Of a stretch of DNA of 59,488 nt, positions 1-59,488 are shown piece after piece (position 1 is the first letter of the stretch; each line of letters starts with the position of its first letter). The position numbers and the translations under genes were made by a program. Below the pieces are notes generated by a model, which searched no databases, was not told the origin of the DNA, and saw only the letters and a list, made by a program, of their open reading frames with translations. Source of the stretch: a virus (Duplodnaviria > Caudoviricetes); the IMG/VR virus record IMGVR_UViG_3300027849_000014, positions 1-59,488 of that record; one strand, 5' to 3'.

Positions 1-467
1 CATTAAACTCTATAGGGAATGTTGGTATATTCTCTTGGTTAATATAAAATAATCCTAAATTTGGTCTTGCTATATCAGTTGAATCATCAACCATAGCTCC
101 AAAGTTTAGAGGATTATTTGTATATCCTCCAAATCCATTAAAGTCTACAGCCTCAACATTGGAACGATTACTTGTAAAAAATATATTACCTGCTCCAACC
201 TCAATAGAACCTATAGCAACAACATGAGCTGTAGCTTCAGGAGTTAAGGATGCAATACATTTTAAATTGTAATAATCATATTCTATACCGCCTACATTAA
301 TCGTAGTAGCTAATTTACTTATTCCTGCAAATTGCCCTTCAGCACCTTTTTCCAGAACAGTAGCTCCTGTAACTCCACTCATTATTTCTTCGTATGTATA
401 TATCTGCCTTTGACTATTTGTTACTTGTGAGCCTCTTTCAGTTAAGTCTACTGACGGATTAAATCCT
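1..467. repeat. Terminal overlap, left copy (matches 59022-59488)
   Basis: Ungapped alignment by eye: 12 substitutions within 1-340; 341-467 (127 bp) identical. Confidence 0.95.
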
Positions 468-496
468 ACAAACTGTTCATTGCTTGGTGTTGCCAT
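1..496 (-). CDS. N-terminal part of a hypothetical (probably virion) protein spanning the circular junction; continues in 58915-59488
   Basis: ATG at 496 gives MATPSNEQFVGFNPSVDLTERGSQ...YEEIMSGVTG, in frame with track ORF 58915..59403. Confidence 0.8.
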   Translation of the reverse strand, partial: MATPSNEQFVGFNPSVDLTERGSQVTNSQRQIYTYEEIMSGVTGATVLEKGAEGQFAGISKLATTINVGGIEYDYYNLKCIASLTPEATAHVVAIGSIEVGAGNIFFTSNRSNVEAVDFNGFGGYTNNPLNFGAMVDDSTDIARPNLGLFYINQENIPTFPIEFN

Positions 497-3971: not shown

Positions 3972-5573
3972 CTATTTAGTTTCGTATGAGCGCGCCATTG
4001 TTACAATAGCGTTAGTTGAAAGAATAGTTACAGCAACAGACACAGCGTTTTCAAGTGCGGTCCTGGTTACCTTGAGGGGGTCTATAACTCCCATGTCTAT
4101 TAGGTTTCCATGCTTACAATTCTTTAAGTCATAACCCTCACCAGTAAGTGGTGGCTTCGGATATATAGAATCAAAATCTTTCCCTGAGTTCTCAATGATT
4201 TGTCTAGCTGGTGCCTGAAGTGCATACTTCATTATACTGGCAGCAATCTTTTCTTCAGCTGTCGGTGAACATGGTTCGCAGATTTCATATCCTAATCCAT
4301 ATAAAGTCATCCCACCTCCAGGAAGTATTCCCTCTTCCAAGGCAGAACGTACTGCACATACAGCATCATCTACCCTGTCGAACAACTCCTTCTGTTCAAG
4401 GTCTGTGTTACCACCAACATATATCACACCTATACCTCCAGTTAGCGAAGCTATACGTGACATGATAAAATCTTTTTCAAGTTTTGTTTTTGCAATATCA
4501 CATGAGGCCTTTAGTTGTTTAACTCTTTTATCTATATCCTCATGCTTATCAGAATCATCCTTCAGGATAACTGTTGAGCCACGACCAACTATCACCTTGG
4601 CAGCATGACCCAAATCCTCAGCGGTTATAATGCTAAGGTCATCCCCAGTTTTTTCTGAAAAATATGTAGCGCCCACAGTATAAGCAATGTCCTGCATCAG
4701 CTCGTGCTGCTTGTATCCAAAGTTAGGTGGAGCTATATTACATATCTTTAAATTGTTCTTCATCACATTAGCGGCTAATGTGTTTATTACATTCACAGAT
4801 GTTGGAGCTATGATAAGAAGCTTCTGGTTCTTCTGAATGATTGGCTTAAGTATATTCTCTATCTGAAGTATATTACTTATCTCCGCATCGGATACCATAA
4901 TATAAACATCCTCTAGTATACACTCATCTTTCCTTTGGTCATTAATAAACAGCGGTGATGAATATCCTCTGTCAACCTTTATACCTTCCGTAGTTTCATA
5001 GTAGGTAGAACTTGTTTGTGATTTCTCTACAGTAACCACACCGTCTTTACCAACCTGCTTATATACATTAGCTATCGTAGTACCAAGGTCCTTGTCATTG
5101 TTCGCTGATATAATAGCAACGTCCCTCATCTTCTTCTTTGACAATCTTTTAGATTCATCCTTAAGACCAAGCACTACCTCTTTCGTTAGCTCATTAATAT
5201 GACGCAGTACCTCTGTCCTGTTTACACCATCACCAATAAGTTCCGTACCCTTCTTAACCAAAGCTTCGGTTAATACTATAGCCGTTGTCGTTCCATCTCC
5301 AGCTGAGGTGGCAGTCTTGTCAGCAGCCTCCTTCATCATACGAACCGCTAGGTTCTCGACAGGGTCGATAAGGTTAATAGACCTAGCTACCGTCACGCCA
5401 TCTTTCGTAACAGTAATGCCTCCGATATGTTCTTCTGATTCTATTAGTACAGTATTACCTTGAGGACCAAGTGTGCTCTTAACTGCGTTTGATAATTTTG
5501 TAATTCCCGATATAAGTTTATCCCTACCGTCCTTACCGAAGCGAAGCTCCTTAGGTGAAAATCCTTGATTCAT
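3972..5573 (-). CDS. groEL: Chaperonin GroEL (Cpn60)
   Basis: STLGPQG, VTKDGVTVA, AGDGTTTA, EEGILPGGG and GVIDPLKV motifs; 533 aa; no GGM tail. Confidence 0.97.
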   Translation of the reverse strand: MNQGFSPKELRFGKDGRDKLISGITKLSNAVKSTLGPQGNTVLIESEEHIGGITVTKDGVTVARSINLIDPVENLAVRMMKEAADKTATSAGDGTTTAIVLTEALVKKGTELIGDGVNRTEVLRHINELTKEVVLGLKDESKRLSKKKMRDVAIISANNDKDLGTTIANVYKQVGKDGVVTVEKSQTSSTYYETTEGIKVDRGYSSPLFINDQRKDECILEDVYIMVSDAEISNILQIENILKPIIQKNQKLLIIAPTSVNVINTLAANVMKNNLKICNIAPPNFGYKQHELMQDIAYTVGATYFSEKTGDDLSIITAEDLGHAAKVIVGRGSTVILKDDSDKHEDIDKRVKQLKASCDIAKTKLEKDFIMSRIASLTGGIGVIYVGGNTDLEQKELFDRVDDAVCAVRSALEEGILPGGGMTLYGLGYEICEPCSPTAEEKIAASIMKYALQAPARQIIENSGKDFDSIYPKPPLTGEGYDLKNCKHGNLIDMGVIDPLKVTRTALENAVSVAVTILSTNAIVTMARSYETK

Positions 5574-5597
5574 AATTTAAGTGTATTTAATTTAATG

Positions 5598-5628
5598 CAA
5601 ATATAGTAAATAATTTTATCACACACAA
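5598..5628 (-). promoter_or_regulatory. groEL promoter TTG-N20-TATATTTG
   Basis: -7 box at 5598-5605 and TTG at 5626-5628 on the - strand. Confidence 0.7.
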
Positions 5629-5632
5629 TGTT

Positions 5633-5801
5633 GAGACTAGGTCTCCCTATATATATATATATAATTATATGTTTATTGCGTTAAAAATTTTTGACGTTTT
5701 GGTTTTCTTTTATAACATTCTTAACATTAGTACTGATAATCAAATAGTTAACTAAATAAACTCAACACAAACTCAACACAAACATAACATCGCCTTGACA
5801 C
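5633..5801. repeat. Origin-like module A: hairpin, (TA)n tract, palindrome and 11-bp iterons
   Basis: GAGAC-TAG-GTCTC 5633-45; TA tract 5648-70; CTGATAATCAA 5733-43; AAACTCAACAC x2 (5758-79) plus two degenerate units in the same 11-bp phase to 5801. Confidence 0.6.
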
Positions 5802-5809
5802 TATGGCAC

Positions 5810-5833
5810 AAAAAAAAGAGGGCACAACCCCTC
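5810..5833 (-). terminator. Intrinsic terminator
   Basis: GAGGG-GTTGTG-CCCTC followed by T8 on the - strand. Confidence 0.8.
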
Positions 5834-5879
5834 CTTCTTCTTAGGCTATGCCTAATCATCAAACACTACGCAATCATAG

Positions 5880-6056
5880 TTACTTAAATCTCTTCATTCT
5901 AGCGCTGGCCATTTCGTTACCCTCCGCTATCATGCTAACTTTATCCGCACGCTTTACTTCCTGTCGCAGTCTTGCAGCTTTACTTATTCCGCTTTCTAAT
6001 TCAGGAGCATTGTTTATTAATCTCCCGTTTGCAATTGTATAGTCACTGTACATCAT
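5880..6056 (-). CDS. Hypothetical protein (58 aa)
   Basis: Hand-translated MMYSDYTIANGRLINNAPELESGISKAARLRQEVKRADKVSMIAEGNEMASARMKRFK; variant promoter TATCTTTA at 6071-78 upstream and terminator downstream. Confidence 0.75.
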   Translation of the reverse strand: MMYSDYTIANGRLINNAPELESGISKAARLRQEVKRADKVSMIAEGNEMASARMKRFK

Positions 6057-6428
6057 ATCTGTTTTTTTTGTAAAGATACAAATTTTTTTAGATAGGCATA
6101 ACCAAAGGGTTCTATAGCACTCTACGTCAGCGAGGCCACAGCGGAAAGTGATTTTTTAAAAGCACCCCCCCTGATGATTTCAGGATTTTATCTCTGGTTT
6201 TTTTAGCTTTTTATCTGGAGCCCCTCCCCCATGGCTGCGCTCTAGCGCTGCACGTAAAGAACCCAGCCCGTACAAGCGCGCGCCTCCCTACGTTACACGT
6301 AATCCCTACCCCATACCCCCACATATCCCGTATCCTACCCAACAAAGACTCTCAGGTGCATAGAGATGCGCCTTAACCTCTGCGCTATCTGGTGGAGCTT
6401 AAACAAAGCATAGGGAACAATATGCCCG

Positions 6429-6690
6429 TAAGCCTCTGACTCTAAGCAATTTAACTGCGAAAGCACGCACTCTGACACAATTGTTATTTAGAATGAATAT
6501 AAACAACAAAAATAAGTATCTGAACCTCAGCTAGTTATAAGTTATTTTGCCTTAGGGCTTGTGTAGTACCCTTAAATAGACTATTTTTGAACCAGAGATA
6601 AACGCTCCTTGACATTTTGAGATATAACGCACTGATAATCAGACAGTTAGCTACTTTAAGCTACCTATCTCGCTGATAATCAGGTACTTA
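6429..6690. promoter_or_regulatory. Cluster of four 25-bp palindromic sites TAA-N4-CTGATAATCAG-N4-TTA (consensus)
   Basis: Copies at 6429-53, 6513-37, 6625-49 and 6666-90; further copies at 5726-50 and 15787-811. Confidence 0.75.
6592..6599 (+). promoter_or_regulatory. Probable early promoter -7 box TATTTTTG
   Basis: TAnnTTTG match upstream of the + strand early arm; no well-spaced -33 TTG seen. Confidence 0.55.
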
Positions 6691-6699
6691 TAGCGACCA

Positions 6700-6860
6700 G
6701 CACATGTGAACTCAAGTGCGCCCTATCCATCTAAGCAAAGCCTATCAACGAATAGGATGCCAAGCTAGAGAGCTGTAACAGGCTTTAGGAATAGGGTGAC
6801 GTGGGGTGCAGTGTGCGAGCATGGTGATGCCAGCCCGATAACCAAGGGGGGTATCACCGC
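6700..6860 (+). ncRNA. Unclassified structured leader RNA
   Basis: Nested helices 6700-05/6811-16, 6719-26/6791-98, 6737-43/6780-86 and 6763-66/6771-74, then 6823-31/6850-58; G-U pairs favour the + strand; GC-rich, no ORF. Confidence 0.6.
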
Positions 6861-6867
6861 AAAATAA

Positions 6868-6911
6868 CCAGCATCTGGATGACAGGCTAGTGAGAGCGAC
6901 ACTCATGCTGG
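6868..6911 (+). ncRNA. Mini-tRNA-like three-way junction 1
   Basis: CCAGCA [TCTG gatga CAGG] ctag [TGAG agcgaca CTCA] TGCTGG, then GGACTAAC. Confidence 0.65.
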
Positions 6912-6936
6912 GGACTAACTTTTAAATTAAATAACG

Positions 6937-7314
6937 ATGCAATTAACTACAAAACAAATGGAATGTAAAGATGAGTTTAGAATACTAGCTACAATGCTTA
7001 ATGACGCTGAGGTGAAGATAGATAAGCTTACCGAGGTTGGGACGTACATGGTGAAAGTAAGCACTAAGCATTTCGCCATGACGCTCAGGAAGAACGTAGC
7101 TGTATGCCCCCTGAACGTACTACAGCAAGGTGTTCGTACATGGAGCATGAGGCTAACAAACTCAAACGGCAGACAGGTAATGTACGCCTCAAGTATGCAC
7201 CCATCTGTATCCAGCCACATGGGAGACCTAATCTCAAAGCATGAGGATGCTAATGAGGTTGATTACAGGGCAGATGATTGGTCAGAGCTGGAGGCTTACG
7301 CTGGGCTTAAGTAG
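6937..7314 (+). CDS. Early hypothetical protein
   Basis: ORF track; first gene of the + arm with an A-rich start context. Confidence 0.75.
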   Translation: MQLTTKQMECKDEFRILATMLNDAEVKIDKLTEVGTYMVKVSTKHFAMTLRKNVAVCPLNVLQQGVRTWSMRLTNSNGRQVMYASSMHPSVSSHMGDLISKHEDANEVDYRADDWSELEAYAGLK

Positions 7315-7323
7315 ATTACCACC

Positions 7324-7366
7324 ACAGGGATTGGAACGATAGGGGTGTTCGACTCACCCCCCCTGT
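7324..7366 (+). ncRNA. Mini-tRNA-like three-way junction 2 (canonical T-loop)
   Basis: ACAGGG [ATTG gaa CGAT] a [GGGGTG ttcgact CACCCC] CCCTGT, then ACTAAC; 12-bp stacked acceptor plus T helix as in tRNA, with no anticodon arm. Confidence 0.75.
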
Positions 7367-7391
7367 ACTAACTTAATTAAATTCAATACCT

Positions 7392-7481
7392 ATGGCTTAC
7401 TTTCCTTTACTTATCCTAGCTCTTGTGATAATCACAGCAGCTTTACTTTTTAAAAACCAAATCAAAAATTTCTTAAAATAA
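7392..7481 (+). CDS. Small single-pass membrane peptide (29 aa)
   Basis: Hand-translated MAYFPLLILALVIITAALLFKNQIKNFLK. Confidence 0.6.
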   Translation: MAYFPLLILALVIITAALLFKNQIKNFLK

Positions 7482-7487
7482 ATCACT

Positions 7488-7565
7488 ATGAAAAAAACGC
7501 TAAAAAAACTCAACACAATCCTAATCGAATTTGCTAACGGTGCTGCATTTGCACTAAGAAATTAA
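7488..7565 (+). CDS. Micro-ORF (25 aa)
   Basis: MKKTLKKLNTILIEFANGAAFALRN; start context taaatcactATG shared with the next ORF. Confidence 0.55.
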   Translation: MKKTLKKLNTILIEFANGAAFALRN

Positions 7566-7570
7566 TCACT

Positions 7571-7723
7571 ATGACAAACCTAGAAAAACTAGCTCAGTAC
7601 TACTACAACGAAGACAATTTATCAACCATCAAATTTGACAAGCACGGCAGACCGTACATCCAGAACAACGGACGTATCATGCTCTCCAGAAGAACAGAGT
7701 ACAGCTACAGCTTTGCTCACTAA
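7571..7723 (+). CDS. Small hypothetical protein (50 aa)
   Basis: MTNLEKLAQYYYNEDNLSTIKFDKHGRPYIQNNGRIMLSRRTEYSYSFAH; packed between neighbours. Confidence 0.65.
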   Translation: MTNLEKLAQYYYNEDNLSTIKFDKHGRPYIQNNGRIMLSRRTEYSYSFAH

Positions 7724-7728
7724 AATCA

Positions 7729-7781
7729 GGTTAACTGATGATTGCTAATTGCATGAAAGCCCCGTACAGGGGCTATTAACC
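7729..7781 (+). ncRNA. Type I hammerhead ribozyme HH1 (predicted cleavage after A7775)
   Basis: GGTTAA-CTGATGA-t TGC taatt GCA t-GAAA-GCCCC gtaca GGGGC-TA-TTAACC: complete CUGANGA/GAAA/UH core with stems I-III; intergenic. Confidence 0.87.
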
Positions 7782-7798
7782 AAATAACAACTAGAATT

Positions 7799-8038
7799 AT
7801 GAGTATCAAATCAAACATTTTAACTGAAATCTCTAAGACATTTCAAACAATCGGCTGGGACACAGCAGAGGCAAAGGGAAAGCTTACCAACGACACGGGC
7901 ATGATACCAGCAGCATTTGAGAAGGAGATGACCATAGAGTACATGAAGGCTAACAACGTACTGTACACGCTTGAGTCTATTGAAAACGATGTAAAAAAGA
8001 TAAAAATGCTAATAGAATTACTAAACGATAACAACTAG
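7799..8038 (+). CDS. Early hypothetical protein
   Basis: ORF track. Confidence 0.7.
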   Translation: MSIKSNILTEISKTFQTIGWDTAEAKGKLTNDTGMIPAAFEKEMTIEYMKANNVLYTLESIENDVKKIKMLIELLNDNN

Positions 8039-8042
8039 AGCT

Positions 8043-8255
8043 ATGAAAAGTTTAAACAACATCAAAGAGACGTTTGCTAAAGGAAATCAAAACGGTAAGC
8101 TAGAGCTAGGTCGCGTTACTTATTGGTTTAACCTTAATGAATTGAGAATTAATCAAGACCTTGATGGGTTTGCATCTAATAGAGCACCGCTATACTATGA
8201 TAATGAGGCTAAATTCTATGCGGCTGTAAAGAGAGTATTAAACAAACAAAACTAA
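8043..8255 (+). CDS. Early hypothetical protein
   Basis: ORF track. Confidence 0.7.
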   Translation: MKSLNNIKETFAKGNQNGKLELGRVTYWFNLNELRINQDLDGFASNRAPLYYDNEAKFYAAVKRVLNKQN

Positions 8256-8498: not shown

Positions 8499-8499
8499 C

Positions 8500-8583
8500 A
8501 CTACTCACCACTCTAGTGCAGTCAAAATAATGGTGTCCAACCTGACACTCAATCACTTGAGGTACGAAGGAAGTAAGAGTAGT
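8500..8583 (+). ncRNA. Unclassified multi-stem RNA element
   Basis: Closing helix ACTACTC(8500-06)/GAGTAGT(8577-83) encloses CTCAA-tcac-TTGAG and either GTGTC/GACAC or GTCA/TGAC helices; intergenic. Confidence 0.45.
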
Positions 8584-8587
8584 AATC

Positions 8588-8632
8588 ACAGGCGCTGTTG
8601 ACAGCCTTGAGCAGAGCAATACTGCTGCCTGT
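8588..8632 (+). ncRNA. Mini-tRNA-like three-way junction 3
   Basis: ACAGGC [GCTG ttga CAGC] cttg [AGCAG agcaata CTGCT] GCCTGT, then ATCTAAC; all helices Watson-Crick. Confidence 0.7.
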
Positions 8633-8653
8633 ATCTAACCAACACGATTAATT

Positions 8654-22964: not shown

Positions 22965-25900
22965 TTAAAAGTCTTCATATATTTCTTTCTTCAAGTCTCT
23001 CTTCATCTTTCTAATATCTGACTTTACTTCTTCTACTTCTTCCATTGTTCCTCCAGGACCATACTTATCCTTATACATTTCAGGAAACATCGCCTTCAGT
23101 TTAGTCTTACTCATTGGTGTATATGTTTCTCCGCCTTCATTCTTTGGTCTGTAAGAAGGAGAGATACCCATCACGTCATACGTAGCGTCATCCATTTCTT
23201 CGTCTTCACCACCAAACAAATTGTACAACCCAATGAAAGGGTCAAGCTGTGCTCCTATAGTTATCTCTGTTATTACTCTAAGCGCGGCCTCTACTTCTCC
23301 GACATCCTTCTTGGTAAGCTTTCTGTACTTAGCTATTACACTAGCTATAGGGTTAACAACATCATCGCTAAACCTAAGCCCTTCCTGTTTATATTCTTCA
23401 CCTTTGATTCCAGCTATTGCTCTACCTGCTACATCAAACCCTTCAACAGCTGAGCCCACAAATGGTAATTGATATATAAGATTCAGTCCCATCATAGCCT
23501 CACCCATTTTTTTAAGAGCAGCCTCCTTGTCTTCGTCATCTCCTTTAACAAACTTAGCAATGTTAGATGCCCCTACAAATAACACGTTGGCTACCATCAT
23601 GTTTAATGCTAAAGCTCTTGTGTCTTTTGAGCGCGGCATTTTACCTTTTGATATACTCCTTGTTATATTGGTTGTGCTAGACATAACCTTATTAATCTGA
23701 AGGAATAATGTACTACCGAACATAGTGAACGCCCTTTGAAATGCGTTGCCATTCATCTGTAAAGGAATCTTATCTGTCCCCCGTCTTGATTGTTGAGTAG
23801 GGTTATAGTTATTAAAAGCCGCAAGAGCTTCAGCCTTAGACATACCATTTTTTATGTTACGCTTATAGTTAATCATGTATCCCATAACCCCAAGCACATC
23901 ACCAATAACAGTAGGTGCAGCAGCAGCTGTTTTAAACTTAGCCTGTATCTTCTTGCGTTGACTTCCCGTCAGCTCCTTCTTCTTAAAGGTTTGAGCCCCA
24001 GACTCTAGCCCGTACACATCACCTTCAAGCCCTTGCTCTATTCTCTTTCTAAATGTAGGAGATATCTCCATGGCTAGTCTTATAGCTCCTTTCTTTCCAA
24101 CCAAGTCTTTACCTAAAGACAGTACGTTAACCGCACCATCAATCATAAACATTGGATAGTCAACAGCCTTCCTAATTACACGAGGAACCTTAGACCCTTC
24201 AGGAAAATAACTATAGTCTTCAAATGCATTTACAAAAGACGTGGCCTGCTTGATTATTTGTACCGCTTTAAAAGCTAGGGCAAATCCTGTAAACTTAGAC
24301 TGCAGCTTGGATATAAATTTTACAGTTCCTGACGCATCTTTACCAGCGTCTGGATTGATAGCAAAGTTTACAGCTCTCTTGACTGCCGAGTCAACCCCAG
24401 TCGAATTGAGTAAAGCTTGAACAGATTTAATCTTAAATAAATTGTTTAACCTCTGTGTTCCTACAGCATACGCCTTGTATTTTTCCATGGTCTCAACATG
24501 GTTGTTAAGAACAGACGTAAACGAACCTGCGTGCAGCTTAACATCGGAGGTTGTGTCTACCCTCTCCTTAAAAGCAGGAGCAGCCTCAGCATTAAAGACT
24601 CCGTTAAAGTCTCCGCCATCTAGTAGCTTCCCCATCTTTTCGCTGTTAACACTAAGTGTAGATGTTGGAAAGTAGTTGTTGACATACCCTAGGTTTACGT
24701 CATTAACATAGGAGTAAACCTCGTTTACACTTTCGTAGTACTCGTTACTTAGAAAGTCTACAGACTTCTCTGTAAACTCTACAGCCTCTATACCTATAAT
24801 GCCTTTGATATTCTCTATAACCTCAGGGGTTATACCTTGAGCCTCAAGCTTCGCTCTCTGTATATCATTTAAACTCAACGCATATATACGCATTAGTTCG
24901 TCTGCACTAAAGATGTCTGTATATTCATTTCCAGTATCACTACGTTTTAATTTTAATTTATGAACGCCAGTGTTTAGTTTAGAATAAATTTCTCTTACCC
25001 CTTTAGTAATTCCAGGGATTGTGTTAGCAATGTTATCAAGCTTCTCTCTTGTTTGGAAAACACCTCCGTTGTTTATGTCATCCATTCGGTTCAAGGCAGC
25101 GTATACATTCTTCGTAAAGAAATCTTTTCCTCTGGTTACCCTATCAAGAGTATTGCTTAAGGTACCAAGGTGCTGTAGCATCAACTTAAAGTTTTTAATA
25201 TACTCACTAGCCGTAGTAAACTTCATGCTTTCAGCTAAGGTAGAAAGCCCTTTGCCTATTTCAAAGTTTCTAAAGTGAGAAAGTATTTCATTCTTTCTAG
25301 CGTCACGCTCATTCTCATTTAGAACATTGCCATCTTTATCAAACAGAATAGGATTGGTATCTTTAATCTGATTGTCTGCCTCCTCTTCCATTTTTCTATT
25401 AGCCTCAGCCCTTGCTAGTCTTCTGGACTTAAACACAGCAATGGACTCAGCTCTAACATCTTTAACCTGTTGCATAAGCTCTTGAACTTCTTCAAGATTC
25501 ATATTAGAAACATCTCCAAAGGTATCAAACGCTAGTGCTAAGTTTAATAGAGCCTGCTCTTTCTGTGTAAGAGTCTCTCCTTTAATCCCACGTTTCTTGC
25601 GCTGCATTTCACGCCTCTGCTTATCTATAATGAGGCTTATTTCTAAAGCTTCTGTCTGAAGCTTCTGTTGTATATCAAGCAGCGTATCAGCATCAGCCAT
25701 AAGCACCTGCTTAACAGCACTGAAATAGCTCTGTCCTTCCTTACTTAATCCTTTAGCCCTACGCTTACCTGACTTCGTAAACGCGGTCATGGCTTTTGAC
25801 TTAACAAGCTTGAGCAAATCCTTAACTAAAGCCTTCTTCATTTTCTGCTGCTGCTTCTCTACAATATTCATAACATACTCGGTGTCTGCCTGGAATGTAT

Positions 25901-28900
25901 CAACTGTAGATTTACCAACCCTAGATATGAGGTTGTTAATTTGAGCCTGAGTATATGTTTTAGATTTAGGTAGTGACTTTCTTATGAAGTTTTTAAGCTG
26001 AGTCTGTGAAGCCTTAAGGTTCTTCTCATTTATCTTACGCTGCCTTAGGTTGTTTTTAATGGCTGCTATTTCTTTTTGTACCGTAACATTAGAGCGACTG
26101 TTTAAAGTCTTGTCAAAGTCTACCAATAGCTCCATCTGAGTTTGTTCTGGTTGCGCCTGGTATATAGGATTAGCTTTCATCAGGTCCATAGCTTTCTGTC
26201 TAACCTCTGCCATCGTCTTACCTTTGGATGCAAAGTTAGACAAGGCTTCTCTAACCTCAGAGAATAACTTGATACCATCCTGTACTCCGCTTTCAACTCT
26301 ACCAAACGCATCTGGTAACTGAGTAAATGCATCTACCTTTACCTCCATAGCAGCAGCTATATCTGCTGCTGGAAACTTTCTTCCCTTAAGTACCGCTTTA
26401 ATAGATGCGTCTGAGAATCCGTTTCTTCTACCAGTTTCTATTATAGAATTCATACTCTGGTCAGACTTAAGCATGGCTTCCTTTAGCTCTGTCGAGAAAG
26501 TTTTTAACTGAGCATCGGTTAGTTTCACAGGTTTACCGCTAAAGATATCTGCCATTGCAGTACCTAGGAACTCATCCATTGTTAGGTCCTGAATCTCCTG
26601 TGTTGTTAGGTCCTTAGACAGTTTAAATTCTTGTCTTACATAATCCCACACCGCAGTAATCCAATCCTTAACCTGCTGCTTTAAACTTGCATCCACTACG
26701 CTCTCACCTCTGTTACCGATGAGTGTTGCCATTGCTTCTTCAGTAGCCTTGTTTACATCACCATCAAAACGCTTGAGTAATTTCTTATACAGCTCAGTCT
26801 GTTGTACAATCTCTGCACCACGCTTATATATCTTCTTACCTTTAGGTGTTAATGACAGATGCTTTACCCACACATGACCCATCTCATGAATAGCTGTGTT
26901 GTAAAGCTCAGACTTTGAATCGTGAACATCTTTATTAATAAAGATGTTACCATCCTTAGTCATACCATACACAACAGTATCTCCTCTTAGGTATGCTGTT
27001 ACGTCAGGGCTCTCTAACAATTGGTTCATAGTAGCCTGGTCGGTAGATATATTAACAAAAGGAAAGCTTCGATTCATAAAATCTAAAAGCCTACCCTCTT
27101 CAGTCACACCAACAATAGTTCCTTGGAACTCTCTGTTAGTCATACCCATTTGAACAGGGATTACCTCTGATAATCTTTTCTTATCTGACCTTTTTCTATT
27201 TTTCCCTGCATTTTCATTAGCCTTACCAAGCACAGCATTATTATATGCAGACGGAAACAATTCAAGAACAGACTGAGGCTGTTCTATAACACCTATTATT
27301 TTTCCTCTGGGACCAACAGGATAGTTAGGGTGATTAGTTTTTTCAATACCAGGATTAAGAACATCAATACCTGTGATTGTAAAGACTGAGCGCACAGGAG
27401 TATTTTTAAGCTGAGGCTCTGTAAGAACATCCGTAATAGAACCAAGGTGTAGCTTAGCTTTGCTTTCTGCTGAAGGGTTTTCACCAAGCAGTGCTTTAGC
27501 AACAGGGTTCGATGGGGTCCCAGGTTTTACCGCCTTACCAGTAGGACTGTTAGGCTTACCATACCCTAGATTACCTGTGATTACATTGACTGATGTAATA
27601 GCCTTTAAATTCTTTAAAGCTTTAGGTGTTAGTAATCCGTCTATTGTTTTTGCCTTAACACTTTTGTCCATTTTTTGAACATCCTCAATAGATTTTATTT
27701 GCTCAGCGTACTGCTTAAGTGTACTAGGTTTTACCGCATTACCAGATAAACCCACTCCATCTTTTATAGCTTGCTGTAGCTTAGTTTTTTTTGTTTCTAA
27801 TCTCTCTCTAAAAACATTCAAAGCCTCTACTCTCTGAGCCTTAGGGAACGAGGATATGTTGTCAGCCATTACACGAACAACAGCTTCATTGCTAAGTATA
27901 GAGTCTGTCTCCATCTTAACAATTGACATAGGAACTAATCCGTTATACTCAGGATTAGCTGCCCACCAATTTTTAAAAAGTTCTTTGTTGTTGTTATATA
28001 TCTTGGTCGCTGTAGAAATCTGACCCTTGACAGTGTTGTTATCGATGCTTGCCCATGCAAGATTCTCATGCCCCTTCACACCGTTAAATCCTAGGCCACC
28101 CTTTAAATTTTTTATAACCTTGCCTGTAGATGGGTTGACTACGTTACCAGTTCTAAGCTGGTCTGATATACTGAACATGGTAGGGATACCATCAATGACA
28201 TCTATTGTAACAATAGGTAAAGGTCTTCCTCCGTTCTCCTTTAGTCTTTCGTTTAGTTCTTGTACATCAATCTTAGGGGCATTAGGGTTTGTCTCGGTTA
28301 TCTCGACAACCGCACCATCCGTATCTTCGGACATTGCCTCAACAATTTCATTCACATCTGTGAATCCTTCTTTACTCTGCTCCTCCTTTAACTTGAAGTC
28401 AACATTGGCATCGTTCTCAAACTCTGATTCTAAGTCTGCCTCTAGGTCTGCAACCTCTTGAGCTGCAGCTGTCTCACTTGCTTTGAGTTCTTCAAACCCT
28501 GAATAGTATTCTTCGGTAGTAACACCCTCAAACTTAGAGTCGTTCTCTATTGCTTTGAGGAGCGTGCTATAAAGGTCTCCCCCAGTTTGTCTGTCTTGGG
28601 ACCGTTTGCTCGCAGACTTTCTAAGAATTTCTTTCCTTTTTCCCTGGTCGACATAGATGGAGTTGACTGGTCGGTAGCTTTGTTTATCATAAGTAATGTT
28701 GTTAGCTTCTAATTCTTCTACAAAGATACCAATTTTATCTTGTAGTTCTGGGTTATCAAATTCAAATATGTTTATGAAACTTACCTCCCCTGTATCTTCA
28801 TTGACACTGAAGTCTGTTATACCTGACTTCTCTAGAGCATTGATAACACCCTGACTATCTGATACGGTAAGAACATACTCATTCCCGTTGTGCTCCTTAG

Positions 28901-31900
28901 AGCCCTCCTCTACGTACTCTGCGGCTATGCTACTCTCCTGAGTTTCAGGAGCTAACGCAGCTGAGATTGCAGCGTACTCTTGAGCCTGCTCTATTGACGC
29001 GTCCTTAAGTACTACCCTTGTTGATATCTCAACTATCTCTTTGCCAGCATCGTTCTTATATCCACCGATACCTTCTTCAATCTCAACCTCAACACCAAGC
29101 TGTTCGCCAATGGCTGTTAAGTTTTCTTTGTACGCCTGGTACTCTTTAGTTTTTCTTAAGGCAACAGCGTCCTCAACTGTTTTAATTGTTGTATCAAAGA
29201 ACGGAGCCACAGCAACTATGGTTTCTGCCTTTGTCTTTGTATCTGTTGTTGTCTTTGTGCTTGCCTTTGATTTAACCATGACAGGTAAATCAATATCAAT
29301 ACTATAGGTATTAGGTTTTCTTGGCACTTTCTTTTCTCCAGGTCTAGGTGGTGGAGAAGGAGGTGATTTCTTTTTCTTTATTGTTGCGGTTATACCTGGG
29401 TAGGCAGCCTCAATCTTAGCCAGCTCGGCCTCAGCCTCAACAAGCTCTGTGGTTGAATAATTATTGTAAGCCGTTTCGGAATTTTCAGCTACAGATTCTT
29501 TTGTTGCATTGTTGTACGCTGTTTTTCTGGTGACAACATTACCATCTGAATCAACTTTAGTATCCATGTTAGATTTGTTGAAGGACCTTAGTCCTCCTGT
29601 AGATATTGAACTGGTCTCAACAACCTCTGCTCCATCTGGTAATGTAGCCTCAGCAGACGTAATCATATTCTTGAACGCGCCTCCTGTAGACTCCATCTTA
29701 GCGGAGAACATATTTGTTGCCTTGCCATCTTCATATACCCTAACGTATCCAACAAAATTATTTTTGTCTGTGCTACTAATTATAGCATCAACAACTCCTG
29801 TGTCTTGATTCACGTATGTGGCTGTCGCAACTCCTTGTTCATCAGCATCTGTGATTTCTTTTATGGCTGCCTTACCAGGAAGTCTTTTGTCTGTGTGTGC
29901 ATCTCCAAAAGTATCTCTTTGCTCTGGAGATATAGCAGCTTCATCAGGGTTTTTAAATACTAACTGTTTCGTTTCGGTGGTCTCAACCCCTGGGGTTTCT
30001 TCGATGGATACTCCTTCTCCCACTCCTGTGCTATCTTCGGTTTGTTCGCGTGCATCCACGCCCTCTGTTTCTGTGATTTGAACGGCATCTAGTTTTTCAT
30101 TTAATATTTTAGTAACTTCTTTATCATTGGCAACCTTACCATTAAACTGGGTAAGCTGACGAGCATTCATTCTACCAAGCTTCTTTAAAAACTCAGTTCT
30201 GCTATAAGTTTTTCCATCTATTACATACTGAGACAGAGCCTCTCTTGTGTCAGTGGTCTCAACCCCTGGAGAAAAGACAGCCTCTATCCTTGCTTTAATC
30301 TCTGCAGGAGCTAATTTTTTGTTCTCTATTAAAAATGCAATCTCTGCATTAATATCTTTTATCTTCTGACCGAATATTTCTTTACGATTGGTGTCTGCAG
30401 AGTACTCCTCTTTAGCGGACAGCAACTGCATAAGCCTTGTCTTCACAAGTTTATTTTTTTCGTTGCTCTTCCCCATACCAAAGTCAAGCATGTTGTCTGC
30501 GTCCTTAGAAAGCCCTAAGTTTTTTTGTATTCGCTGTGCCTGGTCGGCATTAATTTGTCCAAGCTCAAGCATGTTGTTTGTCCACGCAGATACTCTTGTG
30601 TCGCTTTCTTGTGACAATTCCTGAACTATAAAATCCATCTCGGTAAGCTTAGAGGCAAGCTCTATCTTACTCAATCTTTTTATGTCCATCACCTTGTTGA
30701 TTATCATGCTTGATGTGTTGTTTCCAAAACCACCAATACCTTCTGCAGCTATTTCTTTAAAATCTAATTCATCACCAACATTAACTTGAGCAAGTCCCTC
30801 TCCAAGCATTTCTGTAGCAGGGTCAACTATCAATCGCTCTGCTACCTGTGATACAACCTTCTTTGTTCTTGAAGCTGTTTTACCAACTTTAAACACGCGC
30901 CCTGCAGCGCCTGCGGTTATGAAGTCTACAAGAGCAATTGGAACACCACGCTTTATACCTCTTTCTTTTGCTGTTGCCCAAATCTCTGGGTCGTTTATAG
31001 CCTTCACAACATCCTGTGGGTTTAGAACATCTAGGCCTTTATCCTCCATAGCTGCAAAAAACTCATTGGTATACTCCATAGCAAAAGATGTCATCGCCAT
31101 ACCTGTCTTCATACCCTGTCTCGCGCCAAATACAGCTCCTGCTCCTGTAGTTACTACACCACCAGGTCCTGTAACAATCCCTGCCGACCCAATTAAAGCC
31201 CCAGTCCCAGCACCTGTAACCGTACTAGCCGCCACAAGTTCTGCTCCGTAAGGAAGCATCATACCTATAGAGTTTATAGCCATAACAAAAGCTGTTTCAA
31301 ATGGATTAGCGTTAAACGCATCAAGAGATTCTCTAAATCCTGTAGCCCTGTTCCACCTTGATAACTGTCTAGACTGTTTTCTGCCTTGATTTTTTCCTTT
31401 TAATGCAGATATCATTTCAGCCGCCTTCTTAACATCCTCTTCGTTGTTAATGTCTAGATTTTGAAAATCAAAAGGCATACCTGTGCTTAGCTGAAGTATA
31501 ACTTCAGATGCGTTTCCATCGTTTAGCCCAGCGCGGAGCTCTCCGTAAACCGCAGACGCGCCATCTTCCATATCCTGGGTTATTGATTTGTCATACTTAG
31601 CGCTGTAAAAAGTTTTAGAGGTTTCATATAAATCAGCAGCGTGCTGTCTCTCTACGTTTATTGATTTGGCCTGTATCCTAAGGTCGTCTATTAGCTCTGC
31701 CTGTGTTTCATTTGTGGGTACGACATTGTATAGGTCTTTGACAGGTACACCAAATTCTTTTAAAGACAAAACCTCTAGCTCGTCCTGAGCAAACAGTAGC
31801 TGTCTATTTTCTTTGGCTGCTTTCTGGGATAATGCTTCGTATTTTTTGTGTGTCTTAAGGTCAAACTCTTCTCTGAGCTTAATTTTTTCTTCGGTATTAA

Positions 31901-58914: not shown

Positions 58915-59488
58915 TTAAGCTATTGTAAATTCTACAGTTGTATTTTTTTGAGCAATAAAATCCATATCAACATAAACATCACATTCAAAATTTGCAGCAT
59001 CTGCTGCTACGATGAACATTGCATTAAACTCTATTGGGAATGTTGGGATATTTTCTTGGTTAATATAAAACAATCCTAAATTTGGTCTTGCTATATCAGT
59101 TGAATCATCAACCATAGCTCCAAAGTTTAGGGGATTATTTGTATATCCTCCAAATCCATTGAAGTCTACAGCCTCAATATTGGAACGATTACTTGTAAAA
59201 AATATATTACCTGCTCCAACCTCAATAGAGCCTATAGCAACAACATGAGTTGTGGCTTCAGGAGTTAAGGATGCAATACATTTTAAATTGTAAGAATCAT
59301 ATTCTATACCGCCTACATTAATCGTAGTAGCTAATTTACTTATTCCTGCAAATTGCCCTTGAGCACCTTTTTCCAGAACAGTAGCTCCTGTAACTCCACT
59401 CATTATTTCTTCGTATGTATATATCTGCCTTTGACTATTTGTTACTTGTGAGCCTCTTTCAGTTAAGTCTACTGACGGATTAAATCCT
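58915..59488 (-). CDS. Hypothetical (probably virion) protein; true start at 496 across the junction
   Basis: The frame stays open to the window end and continues through the overlap. Confidence 0.78.
   Translation of the reverse strand, partial: GFNPSVDLTERGSQVTNSQRQIYTYEEIMSGVTGATVLEKGAQGQFAGISKLATTINVGGIEYDSYNLKCIASLTPEATTHVVAIGSIEVGAGNIFFTSNRSNIEAVDFNGFGGYTNNPLNFGAMVDDSTDIARPNLGLFYINQENIPTFPIEFNAMFIVAADAANFECDVYVDMDFIAQKNTTVEFTIA
59022..59488. repeat. Terminal overlap, right copy
   Basis: Matches 1-467 with 12 substitutions. Confidence 0.95.

What the first reader, a model, noticed from the sequence alone, without database searches (positions are those of the whole stretch)
6700..6860. 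~160-nt structured RNA at the very start of the early transcript
Seen: a long nested multi-helix domain (6-8 bp helices with G-U pairs) plus a 9-bp hairpin GGTGATGCC/GGTATCACC. A competing helix CCTAT/ATAGG (6741-45/6752-56) overlaps AAAGCCT/AGGCTTT, hinting at two conformers. Mini-tRNA1 follows 7 nt later. Inference: a first-made ncRNA (anti-defence decoy, antiterminator or switch) whose 3' end could be produced by RNase P cleavage at the mini-tRNA, analogous to MALAT1/mascRNA maturation.
Basis: partly seen in the sequence, partly recalled or inferred. Interest (0 to 1): 0.7.

Follow-up and report, generated by a model that had tools for sequence, protein, structure and literature searches.

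The report
Structured leader RNA in marine phage
A strongly folded, non-coding stretch of RNA sits just after the promoters that head one gene block of an uncultured marine phage and runs into a small tRNA-shaped element; the fold is real, but it is specific to a few near-identical strains and its function is unknown.

Summary
6700-6860 folds to -61.3 kcal/mol (z -3.19, 0 of 200 shuffles). The opposite strand gives z -0.04, and 0 of 149 other windows of this genome scored lower. The stretch has no ORF, 53% G+C in a 39% genome, and no Rfam match.

It is the body of a cassette, 6577-6928, which is 97-98% identical to one relative while both flanks are diverged or replaced. The cassette has promoter-like TGATAATCA motifs at 6632 and 6673. 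The same motif lies 44-79 nt before real tRNA genes in 5 of 5 tRNA-bearing relatives. It ends in a 45-nt tRNA-like junction with strong covariation.

Contigs from four metatranscriptome runs (three studies) cover 6594-6900 and stop at 6884-6900. That is inside the tRNA-like element, not at 6867.

Sister lineages replace the body with other hairpin sets. Only a closing helix, a GUGAA motif and a hairpin with an invariant GAUAACCAA loop are shared. The proposed competing helix has at most 0.7% probability.

Best reading: a stable, processed leader RNA bounded by a tRNA-like element. A trans-acting role is possible but untested. The window is not N4-like.

The parts
6577..6928 (+). Whole cassette: promoter region, structured body, tRNA-like element and the ACTAAC tail. 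It is an island of 97-98% identity to relative L195, and both flanks are diverged.
   Evidence: between 6577 and 6928 there are 6 differences from L195 in 352 nt. There are 9 differences in the 15 nt 6562-6576, and the sequence diverges after 6929; identity per 100 nt is 0.67-0.89 over 5574-6573 and 0.97-0.98 over 6574-6873. GroEL DNA is 87.7% identical.
6582..6589 (+). TATTTTTG, a match to the Bacteroidota-type -7 promoter motif TAnnTTTG (motif recalled). It may be an upstream start signal. The evidence is weak.
   Evidence: the motif is not enriched in the genome (72 matches, 67.8 expected). It is kept in lineages W, B and C, and has a final A in L002. RNA contigs from one sample begin at 6594 and 6613.
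6609..6642 (+). First promoter-like site: TTGACA (6609-6614), a 19-nt spacer, then GATAAT inside CTGATAATCAG (6632-6642), followed by ACAGTTAGC. The inferred start is about 6644-6648.
   Evidence: 3 exact copies and 1 one-mismatch + strand copy of CTGATAATCAG in the genome (the 8 listed matches count the palindrome on both strands). 1.6 were expected, and 0 of 100 shuffles reached 8; the same TGAT(A/T)ATCA + nnAGTTA motif lies 44-79 nt upstream of the tRNA genes in 5 of 5 tRNA-bearing relatives; the contig from run X18 begins at 6644.
6673..6683 (+). Second, tandem copy of CTGATAATCAG, 41 nt after the first. Its -35 region is poor, and in L195 and L003 its -10 reads GATAAC.
   Evidence: T6680C in L195 and L003.
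6700..6816 (+). Multi-helix domain. It has a closing helix GCACAU/GUGUGC (6700-6705 with 6811-6816), an internal loop holding GUGAAC, a long irregular helix, and a three-way junction with the CCUAU/AUAGG hairpin.
   Evidence: Three of the four L195 substitutions fall in paired positions here or in the next hairpin and keep the pair (C6723T gives G-U, A6752G gives U-G, T6852C turns G-U into G-C). G6851A breaks one pair.
6823..6858 (+). A 9-bp hairpin that encloses a 3-bp helix (6834-6836 with 6846-6848) capped by the 9-nt loop GAUAACCAA (6837-6845).
   Evidence: pair probabilities are at least 0.93; across 4 lineages the loop is invariant and the 3 pairs read CCC/GGG, UAU/GUA, CGA/UCG and CAC/GUG. 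12 of 12 cells pair, all 3 pairs change on both sides, and 3 of 500 shuffles reach that.
6868..6912 (+). tRNA-like three-way junction ('mini-tRNA1'). It has an acceptor-like stem, a CUG-N5-CAG hairpin, and a T-arm-like hairpin with loop AGCGACA. There is no anticodon arm and no CCA.
   Evidence: covariation; model R1 scores 75.1 bits. ARAGORN finds 0 tRNA; no Rfam tRNA or tmRNA match.
6914..6936 (+). ACTAACTT followed by an AU-rich 22-nt leader up to the ATG of the first ORF. No Shine-Dalgarno sequence is present.
   Evidence: CUAAC also follows the other two tRNA-like elements, at 7367 and 8635.
6937..7314 (+). First ORF of the rightward block (125 aa, no family match). L195 has a different ORF at this position.
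   Evidence: 0 PHROG families. (no homology after 6929-6942).

Best explanation
6700-6860 is the G+C-rich, tightly folded body of a non-coding leader RNA. This leader heads the rightward (early/replication) gene block of a 59-kb uncultured marine phage.

I infer that transcription starts at tandem -35/-10-like promoters whose core is TGATAATCA, giving starts near 6645 and 6687, and possibly also near 6594. The RNA then runs through the multi-helix domain and the GAUAACCAA hairpin into a conserved tRNA-shaped junction at 6868-6912.

I infer that host tRNA-end nucleases (RNase P and/or an RNase Z- or E-type cut on the 3' side) act at this junction. That would separate a nuclease-resistant structured RNA from the ORF1 message, which would be left with a short AU-rich leader. 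The structured piece, probably still carrying the tRNA-like end, would then accumulate.

Shown here: the stretch is non-coding; the folding is strand-specific; the cassette is a conserved island; the promoter motif is linked to tRNA genes in relatives; the tRNA-like junction covaries; the stretch is present in RNA libraries.

Inferred: the start sites, the cleavage, the stability, and any function of the released RNA.
For: - Fold: z -3.19 with 0 of 200 shuffles. The opposite strand gives z -0.04. 0 of 149 genome windows scored lower. G+C is 53.4% against 38.6% for the genome.
- Coding: no + strand ORF of 30 aa or more in 6690-6936.
- Conservation: the cassette 6577-6928 is 97-98% identical to L195, while the flanks are 67-89% identical or replaced.
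- Promoter motif: it sits before the tRNA genes in 5 of 5 tRNA-bearing relatives.
- tRNA-like junction: 99.2% of cells paired, 7 of 14 pairs changed on both sides, 0 of 500 shuffles. A second copy of the same model lies at 8586-8645, again about 20 nt before an ATG and again preceded by a folded domain. A third tRNA-like element, with a canonical UUCGACU loop, lies at 7322-7372 between two ORFs.
- RNA libraries: metatranscriptome contigs cover 6594-6758, 6613-6884, 6644-6900 and 6728-6896 (4 runs, 3 studies, 3 samples). None lies on 6915-8126, and three of them end within 16 nt of each other with no loose end.
- Precedent: the marine crAss-like phage phi14:2 makes abundant, persistent rightward non-coding RNAs from intergenic spaces at the head of its early region (passages of bioRxiv 10.1101/2020.03.07.982082).
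Against: - The RNA evidence comes from assembled contigs without strand or depth profile, and DNA can be present in RNA libraries.
- The empty ORF1 region is uninformative, because ORF1 differs between strains.
- Contigs from one sample begin at 6594 and 6613, upstream of the inferred starts.
- The contigs cross 6867, so cleavage on the 5' side of the mini-tRNA is at best partial.
- The mini-tRNA1 loop AGCGACA is not a canonical T-loop, and no CCA follows.
- The 160-nt fold itself has no independent comparative support. There are only 4 substitutions against L195, and one of them breaks a pair.
- The bodies in sister lineages are different and not unusually stable: z +0.73, -1.40, -2.05 and -0.60.
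Confidence: 0.4

Rival explanations
1. A trans-acting non-coding RNA gene. On this reading the cassette is a free-standing RNA gene whose structured body plus tRNA-like 3' domain binds a host or phage factor. Candidates are a tRNA- or tmRNA-handling protein or a defence protein. The invariant GAUAACCAA loop and the GUGAA motif would be the contact points.
For: - The cassette keeps 97-98% identity while the ORF downstream is swapped for another, so it is not tied to one gene.
- It uses the promoter type that drives tRNA genes in relatives.
- The body is hypervariable between lineages, while one 9-nt loop is invariant in 4 lineages.
- RNA contigs include the tRNA-like part.
- phi14:2 places a real tmRNA in the same kind of position.
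Against: - No partner is known.
- Lineage D and L206 lack the GAUAACCAA hairpin altogether.
- No complement of the loop was found in the rightward transcripts of the window.
- The high identity could reflect recent recombination rather than selection.
Confidence: 0.25
2. A cis-acting leader that modifies the transcribing polymerase or protects the message, in the manner of the HK022 put RNA (recalled). It would act before or without cleavage.
For: It lies directly downstream of the promoters of a long polycistronic block that contains internal hairpins, for example 7745-7775. The multi-helix fold has conserved single-stranded motifs.
Against: An RNA that binds a conserved polymerase should itself be conserved, but the body is replaced between phages whose GroEL is 87-94% identical. 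A processing-type element separates it from the genes.
Confidence: 0.12
3. No RNA function for the body. On this reading it is a recently exchanged G+C-rich insert, and the conserved promoter and tRNA-like ends serve as recombination linkers for shuffling early genes, like the promoter-stem-loop cassettes of T4-type phages (recalled).
For: - The early region is mosaic. The most conserved islands against L195 are the leader, the second tRNA-like element (96.4% over 56 nt) and a hairpin at 7728-7782 (94.5%), while ORFs are 81-83% identical or absent.
- The bodies differ wholesale between lineages.
- Contigs of many relatives break in this intergenic region.
Against: A strand-specific excess of stability, 16.5 kcal/mol over the other strand, and 6 G-U pairs are not expected of neutral or DNA-level sequence. 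Three of four substitutions keep pairs. The stretch is present in RNA libraries.
Confidence: 0.12
4. A riboswitch or other two-state sensor that uses the overlapping helices CCUAU/AUAGG and AAAGCCU/AGGCUUU.
For: Both helices exist and exclude each other.
Against: - The alternative helix has 0.3-0.7% probability and costs 3.8 kcal/mol.
- No Rfam aptamer matches, even at E up to 10 in a 241-nt search.
- The helices are absent from sister lineages.
- What follows is a tRNA-like element, not a terminator or a start-site sequestering helix.
Confidence: 0.04

Closest known systems
Abundant early-region long non-coding RNAs of Cellulophaga phage phi14:2 (crAss-like). I saw passages of the bioRxiv preprint 10.1101/2020.03.07.982082.
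   Same: Both come from a marine phage with a crAss-type tail part. Both are rightward transcripts from long intergenic spaces at the head of the early block. The phi14:2 RNAs are reported as more abundant than most genes and persistent. One of those spaces holds a tRNA-related RNA, a tmRNA.
   Different: No sequence or model similarity was found. nhmmer of 6577-6928 against the first 9 kb of phi14:2 gave 0 hits at E up to 10, and model R1 gave nothing better than E 0.22. The window has no tmRNA.
MALAT1/mascRNA-type maturation (recalled): a tRNA-like element marks the 3' end of an upstream non-coding RNA through RNase P.
   Same: A structured non-coding RNA is followed at once by a tRNA-shaped element that has an acceptor-like and a T-arm-like helix stack.
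   Different: This is a bacterial virus. There is no CCA, and the loop of the first element is non-canonical. The RNA contigs run 17-33 nt past the expected RNase P site, so the tRNA-like part seems to stay attached in at least some molecules.
tRNA-like domain of tmRNA
   Same: Both have an acceptor stem plus a T-arm without an anticodon arm. The element at 7322-7372 has a UUCGACU loop and aligns to the T-arm and acceptor part of an Rfam tmRNA model.
   Different: That alignment scores 4.1 bits at E 8.8, which is not significant. ARAGORN finds no tmRNA. The acceptor strands are 40 nt apart, not at the two ends of the RNA, and there is no tag reading frame.
tRNA operon of relatives of the same phage group
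   Same: The promoter motif is the same, and so are the position and orientation in the divergent region beside GroEL.
   Different: Relatives carry full tRNA-Arg(TCT), tRNA-Ile(TAT) and tRNA-Leu(TAA). The window has 0 tRNA genes, and the slot after its promoter copy at 5733 is empty. The leader studied here follows two further copies of the promoter, about 900 nt to the right.

Membership tests
Any Rfam 15 family | Covariance-model score at or above the gathering threshold | tested here: not met
   There were 0 matches at gathering over the whole window. With E up to 10 on 5560-7500 and on 6690-6930, only chance-level hits appeared. The only hit inside 6700-6860 scored 11.5 bits at E 7.8. The hits lie outside the target.
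tRNA (for the element that follows the target) | Cloverleaf with an anticodon arm, detectable by ARAGORN or Rfam RF00005 | tested here: not met
   ARAGORN found 0 genes in the window. No tRNA hit appeared at E up to 10.
tRNA-like RNase P/Z substrate (mascRNA-type) | Coaxial acceptor and T-stem stack of about 11-12 bp | tested here: met
   There are 6 + 5 pairs. 99.2% of cells pair, 7 of 14 pairs change on both sides, and 0 of 500 shuffles reach that.
tRNA-like RNase P/Z substrate (mascRNA-type) | Canonical T-loop UUCRANY and a 3' CCA (features recalled) | tested here: not met
   The loop is AGCGACA, AGCAAUA or AGCGAAA, and the tail is GACUAAC. The separate element at 7322-7372 does have UUCGACU.
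tRNA-like RNase P/Z substrate (mascRNA-type) | Actual cleavage at the 5' edge, giving an upstream RNA that ends near 6867 | tested here: inconclusive
   RNA contigs end at 6884, 6896 and 6900, not at 6867. They are assembled contigs and cannot show true ends.
tmRNA | tRNA-like domain formed by the two RNA ends, plus a tag reading frame | tested here: not met
   ARAGORN found none. The best Rfam alignment scored 4.1 bits at E 8.8 on the T-arm only. As a positive control, the same tools find the phi14:2 tmRNA.
Riboswitch or two-state sensor | Conserved ligand pocket across lineages, and two competing folds of similar energy tied to an expression platform | tested here: not met
   The body is not conserved between lineages. 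The alternative helix has at most 0.7% probability and costs 3.8 kcal/mol.
N4/LUZ7-type early hairpin promoter (considered for CTGATAATCAG) | The phage encodes an N4-type virion RNA polymerase, and its promoters are hairpins with a stem of at least 4 bp and a 3-nt loop | tested here: not met
   The 3448-aa ORF has 0 PHROG, 0 Pfam and 0 PDB matches. In lineages B and D the palindrome is degraded to 3 bp while the sequence is kept. The motif carries a -35-like box 16-19 nt upstream and heads tRNA genes.
Leader-RNA family shared with sister lineages A, B and C | Closing helix, GUGAA, a hairpin with GAUAACCAA loop, and a hairpin with UGUA loop | tested here: inconclusive
   The window has the closing helix, GUGAAC and the GAUAACCAA hairpin. 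It lacks the UGUA hairpin and the rest of the 55-nt conserved block.

The most novel reading that the evidence does not exclude
The cassette 6577-6928 is a mobile, self-contained RNA gene. It has tRNA-operon promoters, a fast-evolving structured body and a tRNA/tmRNA-like 3' domain. Its product would act in trans early in infection as a decoy for a host tRNA- or tmRNA-handling factor or for an RNA-sensing defence. The related elements at 7322-7372 and 8499-8645 would be further copies of the same strategy.
Probability: 0.13. Interest if true: 0.8.

Novelty: new variant of a known kind. Interest (0 to 1): 0.45.

Why it matters
Phages of marine Bacteroidota are abundant, and their early programmes are almost unknown. 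The only studied case, phi14:2, makes unexplained abundant non-coding RNAs at the same place in its genome.

This window shows a compact version: tRNA-type promoters, a folded body and a covarying tRNA-shaped end, repeated along the early block. If the tRNA-like elements are cut by host tRNA enzymes, this would be tRNA-style punctuation of a phage message. If the released RNA acts in trans, it would be a new class of early phage RNA.

The part under review, the 160-nt fold, is the least conserved piece of this arrangement.

Tried and rejected
- N4-like reading. I first took the 3448-aa ORF for an N4 virion polymerase and CTGATAATCAG for its hairpin promoter. I dropped this after finding 0 PHROG, Pfam and PDB matches, no D[FYW]DxD motif in any frame over 200 aa, and a crAss muzzle-protein match for the 1485-aa ORF (E 1.4e-13).
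- BLAST of 6300-7400 against 50,697 phage records: no match.
- A search for relatives of ORF1 in viral contigs: none.
- The pattern ATCTGNNNGACAGNCTAG gave 111 stretches. By nhmmer only two were related beyond chance, and both were contigs already held.
- The pattern TGTGAACN{105,135}CGATAACCAAGG, meant to find more W-type bodies, gave 4 stretches, all unrelated. No further W-type variants were obtained.
- The tRNA-like model R1 hit 12 of 160 GroEL-anchored loci, all from the close clade with GroEL identity of 81% or more. It hit none of the more distant relatives.
- TAnnTTTG is not enriched in the genome: 72 matches against 67.8 expected.
- The neighbouring stretch 6190-6500 is not unusually folded on either strand: z -0.17 and +0.83.
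- Longer transcripts fold less distinctively: 6648-6925 gives z -1.50 and 6594-6925 gives z -1.61.
- The stretches 6915-8126 and 6006-6510 have no RNA contig. This is not counted as evidence, because ORF1 varies between strains and contigs drop rare sequence.

Full report
**What the window is.** The window is a whole IMG/VR virus record of 59,488 bp, rated 99% complete. Its ends fall inside one minus-strand reading frame (2..496 and 58915..59487), so the record is probably a circularly permuted assembly.

Genes run rightward from 6937 to about 22590 and leftward elsewhere. The rightward block begins with small ORFs that have no family. It then carries a primase/helicase (phrog_18375, E 1.4e-27) and an SNF2-type helicase. 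The leftward block holds a P22-like portal, a virion protein, and a 1485-aa protein that matches the crAss muzzle protein (E 1.4e-13).

The 3448-aa ORF matched nothing in PHROGs, Pfam or PDB sequences, and it has no D[FYW]DxD motif. My first idea, an N4-like phage, therefore does not hold.

None of about ten start codons that I read has a Shine-Dalgarno sequence. Together with the crAss-type tail part, this suggests a Bacteroidota host. That is an inference.

GroEL (3972..5573, minus strand) has 456 relatives in viral contigs and at least 564 in metagenome contigs. The phage group is therefore common in the sea.

**The observation.**
- 6700-6860 folds to -61.3 kcal/mol, z -3.19, with 0 of 200 shuffles as good.
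- The opposite strand gives -44.8 kcal/mol and z -0.04.
- None of 149 other 161-nt windows of the + strand had a lower z; the minimum was -3.15. The target's borders were chosen to fit the fold, and the others were not.
- The fold has 50 pairs, 6 of them G-U, and most have probabilities above 0.9.
- G+C is 53.4% against 38.6% for the genome.
- There is no + strand ORF of 30 aa or more.
- The competing helix AAAGCCU/AGGCUUU has a probability of 0.3-0.7% and costs 3.8 kcal/mol.

**Transcription signals.** CTGATAATCAG occurs exactly at 6632, 6673 and 15794, and with one mismatch at 5733. All copies are on the + strand, and each is followed by nnA(G/C)TTA.

In five relatives that carry real tRNA genes beside GroEL (L010, L075, L078, L080, L208), the same TGAT(A/T)ATCA + nnAGTTA motif lies 44-79 nt upstream of the tRNA block on the same strand. 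That is 5 of 5. A -35-like box lies 16-19 nt upstream of the motif. I therefore read the motif as a -35/-10-type promoter for RNA genes. The starts would be near 6645 and 6687. This is inferred; no start was mapped.

The phi14:2 study reports middle promoters that resemble sigma-70 -35/-10 elements (passages seen).

The copy at 5733 heads an empty slot that ends at a two-way terminator (5818-5833). The tRNAs of relatives lie in that slot.

**The cassette.** Against the closest full relative, L195 (GroEL 94%), identity per 100 nt is 0.67-0.89 over 5574-6573 and 0.97-0.98 over 6574-6873. It is lost after 6929, where L195 has a different first ORF.

Within 6700-6860 there are four substitutions, all at paired positions. 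C6723T and A6752G give wobble pairs, T6852C turns a wobble pair into G-C, and G6851A breaks a pair. This fits selection on the fold, but the numbers are too small to show it. Recent exchange of the module would give the same picture.

**Sister lineages.** Between the same promoter region and the same tRNA-like element, other lineages carry different bodies:
- A: L002, 127 nt.
- B: L197, L198, L204, L008, L273, about 141 nt plus an extra upstream module.
- C: L007, L199, L201, L203, about 150 nt plus a 230-nt module.
- L206: lacks the core.
- D: L274-L279, yet another body.

What the window shares with A, B and C is a closing helix, a single-stranded (A/U)GUGAA, and a 3-bp hairpin with the invariant loop GAUAACCAA. 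In that hairpin, 12 of 12 cells pair, all 3 pairs change on both sides, and 3 of 500 shuffles reach that.

RNAalifold on A, B and C keeps only the closing helix, this hairpin, and a UGUA-loop hairpin that the window lacks. The bodies of A, B and C are not unusually stable: z +0.73, -1.40, -2.05 and -0.60.

The 160-nt fold is therefore specific to its lineage. Only small motifs are family-wide.

**The element that follows.** 6868-6912 forms a three-way junction with an acceptor-like stem, a CUG-N5-CAG hairpin and a T-arm-like hairpin.
- Nine distinct sequences give 99.2% paired cells, 7 of 14 pairs changed on both sides and 0 of 500 shuffles. The slid controls pair at 26-41%.
- A model built from them finds a second copy at 8586-8645 (E 3.7e-6). 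That copy is preceded by its own folded domain (z -2.37).
- The model hits 12 of 160 GroEL-anchored loci, all from the close clade.
- A different tRNA-like element with a UUCGACU loop lies at 7322-7372.
- All three elements are followed by CUAAC and lie 21-26 nt before an ATG.
- None is called a tRNA or tmRNA by ARAGORN or Rfam.

**RNA evidence.** Of 24 runs listed for 6600-7400, 20 hold part of the stretch and 4 are on record as RNA. I laid four metatranscriptome runs from three studies; two of the runs come from one sample. Their contigs cover 6594-6758, 6613-6884, 6644-6900 and 6728-6896. A fifth contig shares 6609-6651 and then continues as another leader variant.

Three contigs from three studies end at 6884, 6896 and 6900 without loose ends. 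The tool rates that pattern as a weak hint of an RNA end. It places the end inside or just after the tRNA-like element, not at 6867. One contig (X18) crosses 6867 with more than 31 nt on each side.

Caveats: these are contigs, not reads. The strand is unknown. DNA may be present in the libraries. ORF1 varies between strains, so its lack of cover says nothing.

**Reading.** The target is the body of a non-coding leader RNA that is bounded by a tRNA-like element. I favour a stable, processed leader (0.40). Below it I rank a trans-acting RNA gene (0.25), a cis-acting polymerase- or message-directed leader (0.12), a module with no RNA function for the body (0.12) and a switch (0.04).

The closest precedent is the pair of abundant early non-coding RNAs of phi14:2. 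Sequence and model searches find no similarity to the first 9 kb of phi14:2.

Noticed in passing
window 6865-6925 and 8586-8645; loci L002, L007, L195, L197-L201, L203, L204, L206, L273-L279: This is a covarying 45-nt tRNA-shaped three-way junction with no anticodon arm and no CCA. It occurs twice in the early block and in every close relative. Each copy lies about 20 nt before an ATG and is followed by CUAAC.
   Followed up: yes
window 7322-7372: A second kind of tRNA-like element lies directly after the stop of ORF1. It has an acceptor-like stem joined by about 12 nt to a T-arm with the canonical loop UUCGACU, followed by ACUAAC. Its layout resembles the tRNA-like domain of tmRNA, but the Rfam alignment is not significant (4.1 bits).
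   Followed up: partly
window 5733-5840; L075 4455-4800, L080 4634-4800 (minus strand of the loci): The promoter motif at 5733 is followed after about 70 nt by a two-way terminator with nothing between them. In relatives the same promoter and terminator enclose tRNA-Arg(TCT), or Arg, Ile and Leu tRNAs. The window seems to have lost its tRNA genes.
   Followed up: partly
L280 (NC_021806, phi14:2) 4031-4500: ARAGORN calls a tmRNA here (tag GSSVQKLAMVA), and Rfam gives 46 bits against a gathering score of 47. It lies in an intergenic space of the region where the phi14:2 preprint reports abundant non-coding RNAs of unknown function. The passages I read do not name it. The gene numbering differs between the paper and the record.
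   Followed up: partly
window 5842-5987: One metatranscriptome run (X16) has a 156-nt contig here at the highest depth of any piece laid (27.6). It overlaps a 58-aa minus-strand ORF (5880-6056) that is followed by a terminator with a T8 tail.
   Followed up: no
window 22965-33311 (minus strand): This 3448-aa ORF has no PHROG, Pfam or PDB sequence match and no DFDxD-type motif. Its size and place suggest a virion-packed giant protein, but its nature is open.
   Followed up: partly
window 7728-7782: This hairpin-bearing intergenic piece is 94.5% identical to L195, where it occurs twice, while the neighbouring ORFs are 81-83% identical or absent. It may be another conserved RNA or a linker element.
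   Followed up: no
window 5673-6885 (equivalent positions in L003-L009, L193, L194, L202, L205, L207): Contigs of many close relatives end at scattered points inside this intergenic region. This fits strain-level hypervariability that breaks assemblies.
   Followed up: no
window 1-496 and 58915-59488: A minus-strand frame runs off both ends of the record, so the record is probably a permuted circular assembly of a complete genome.
   Followed up: no
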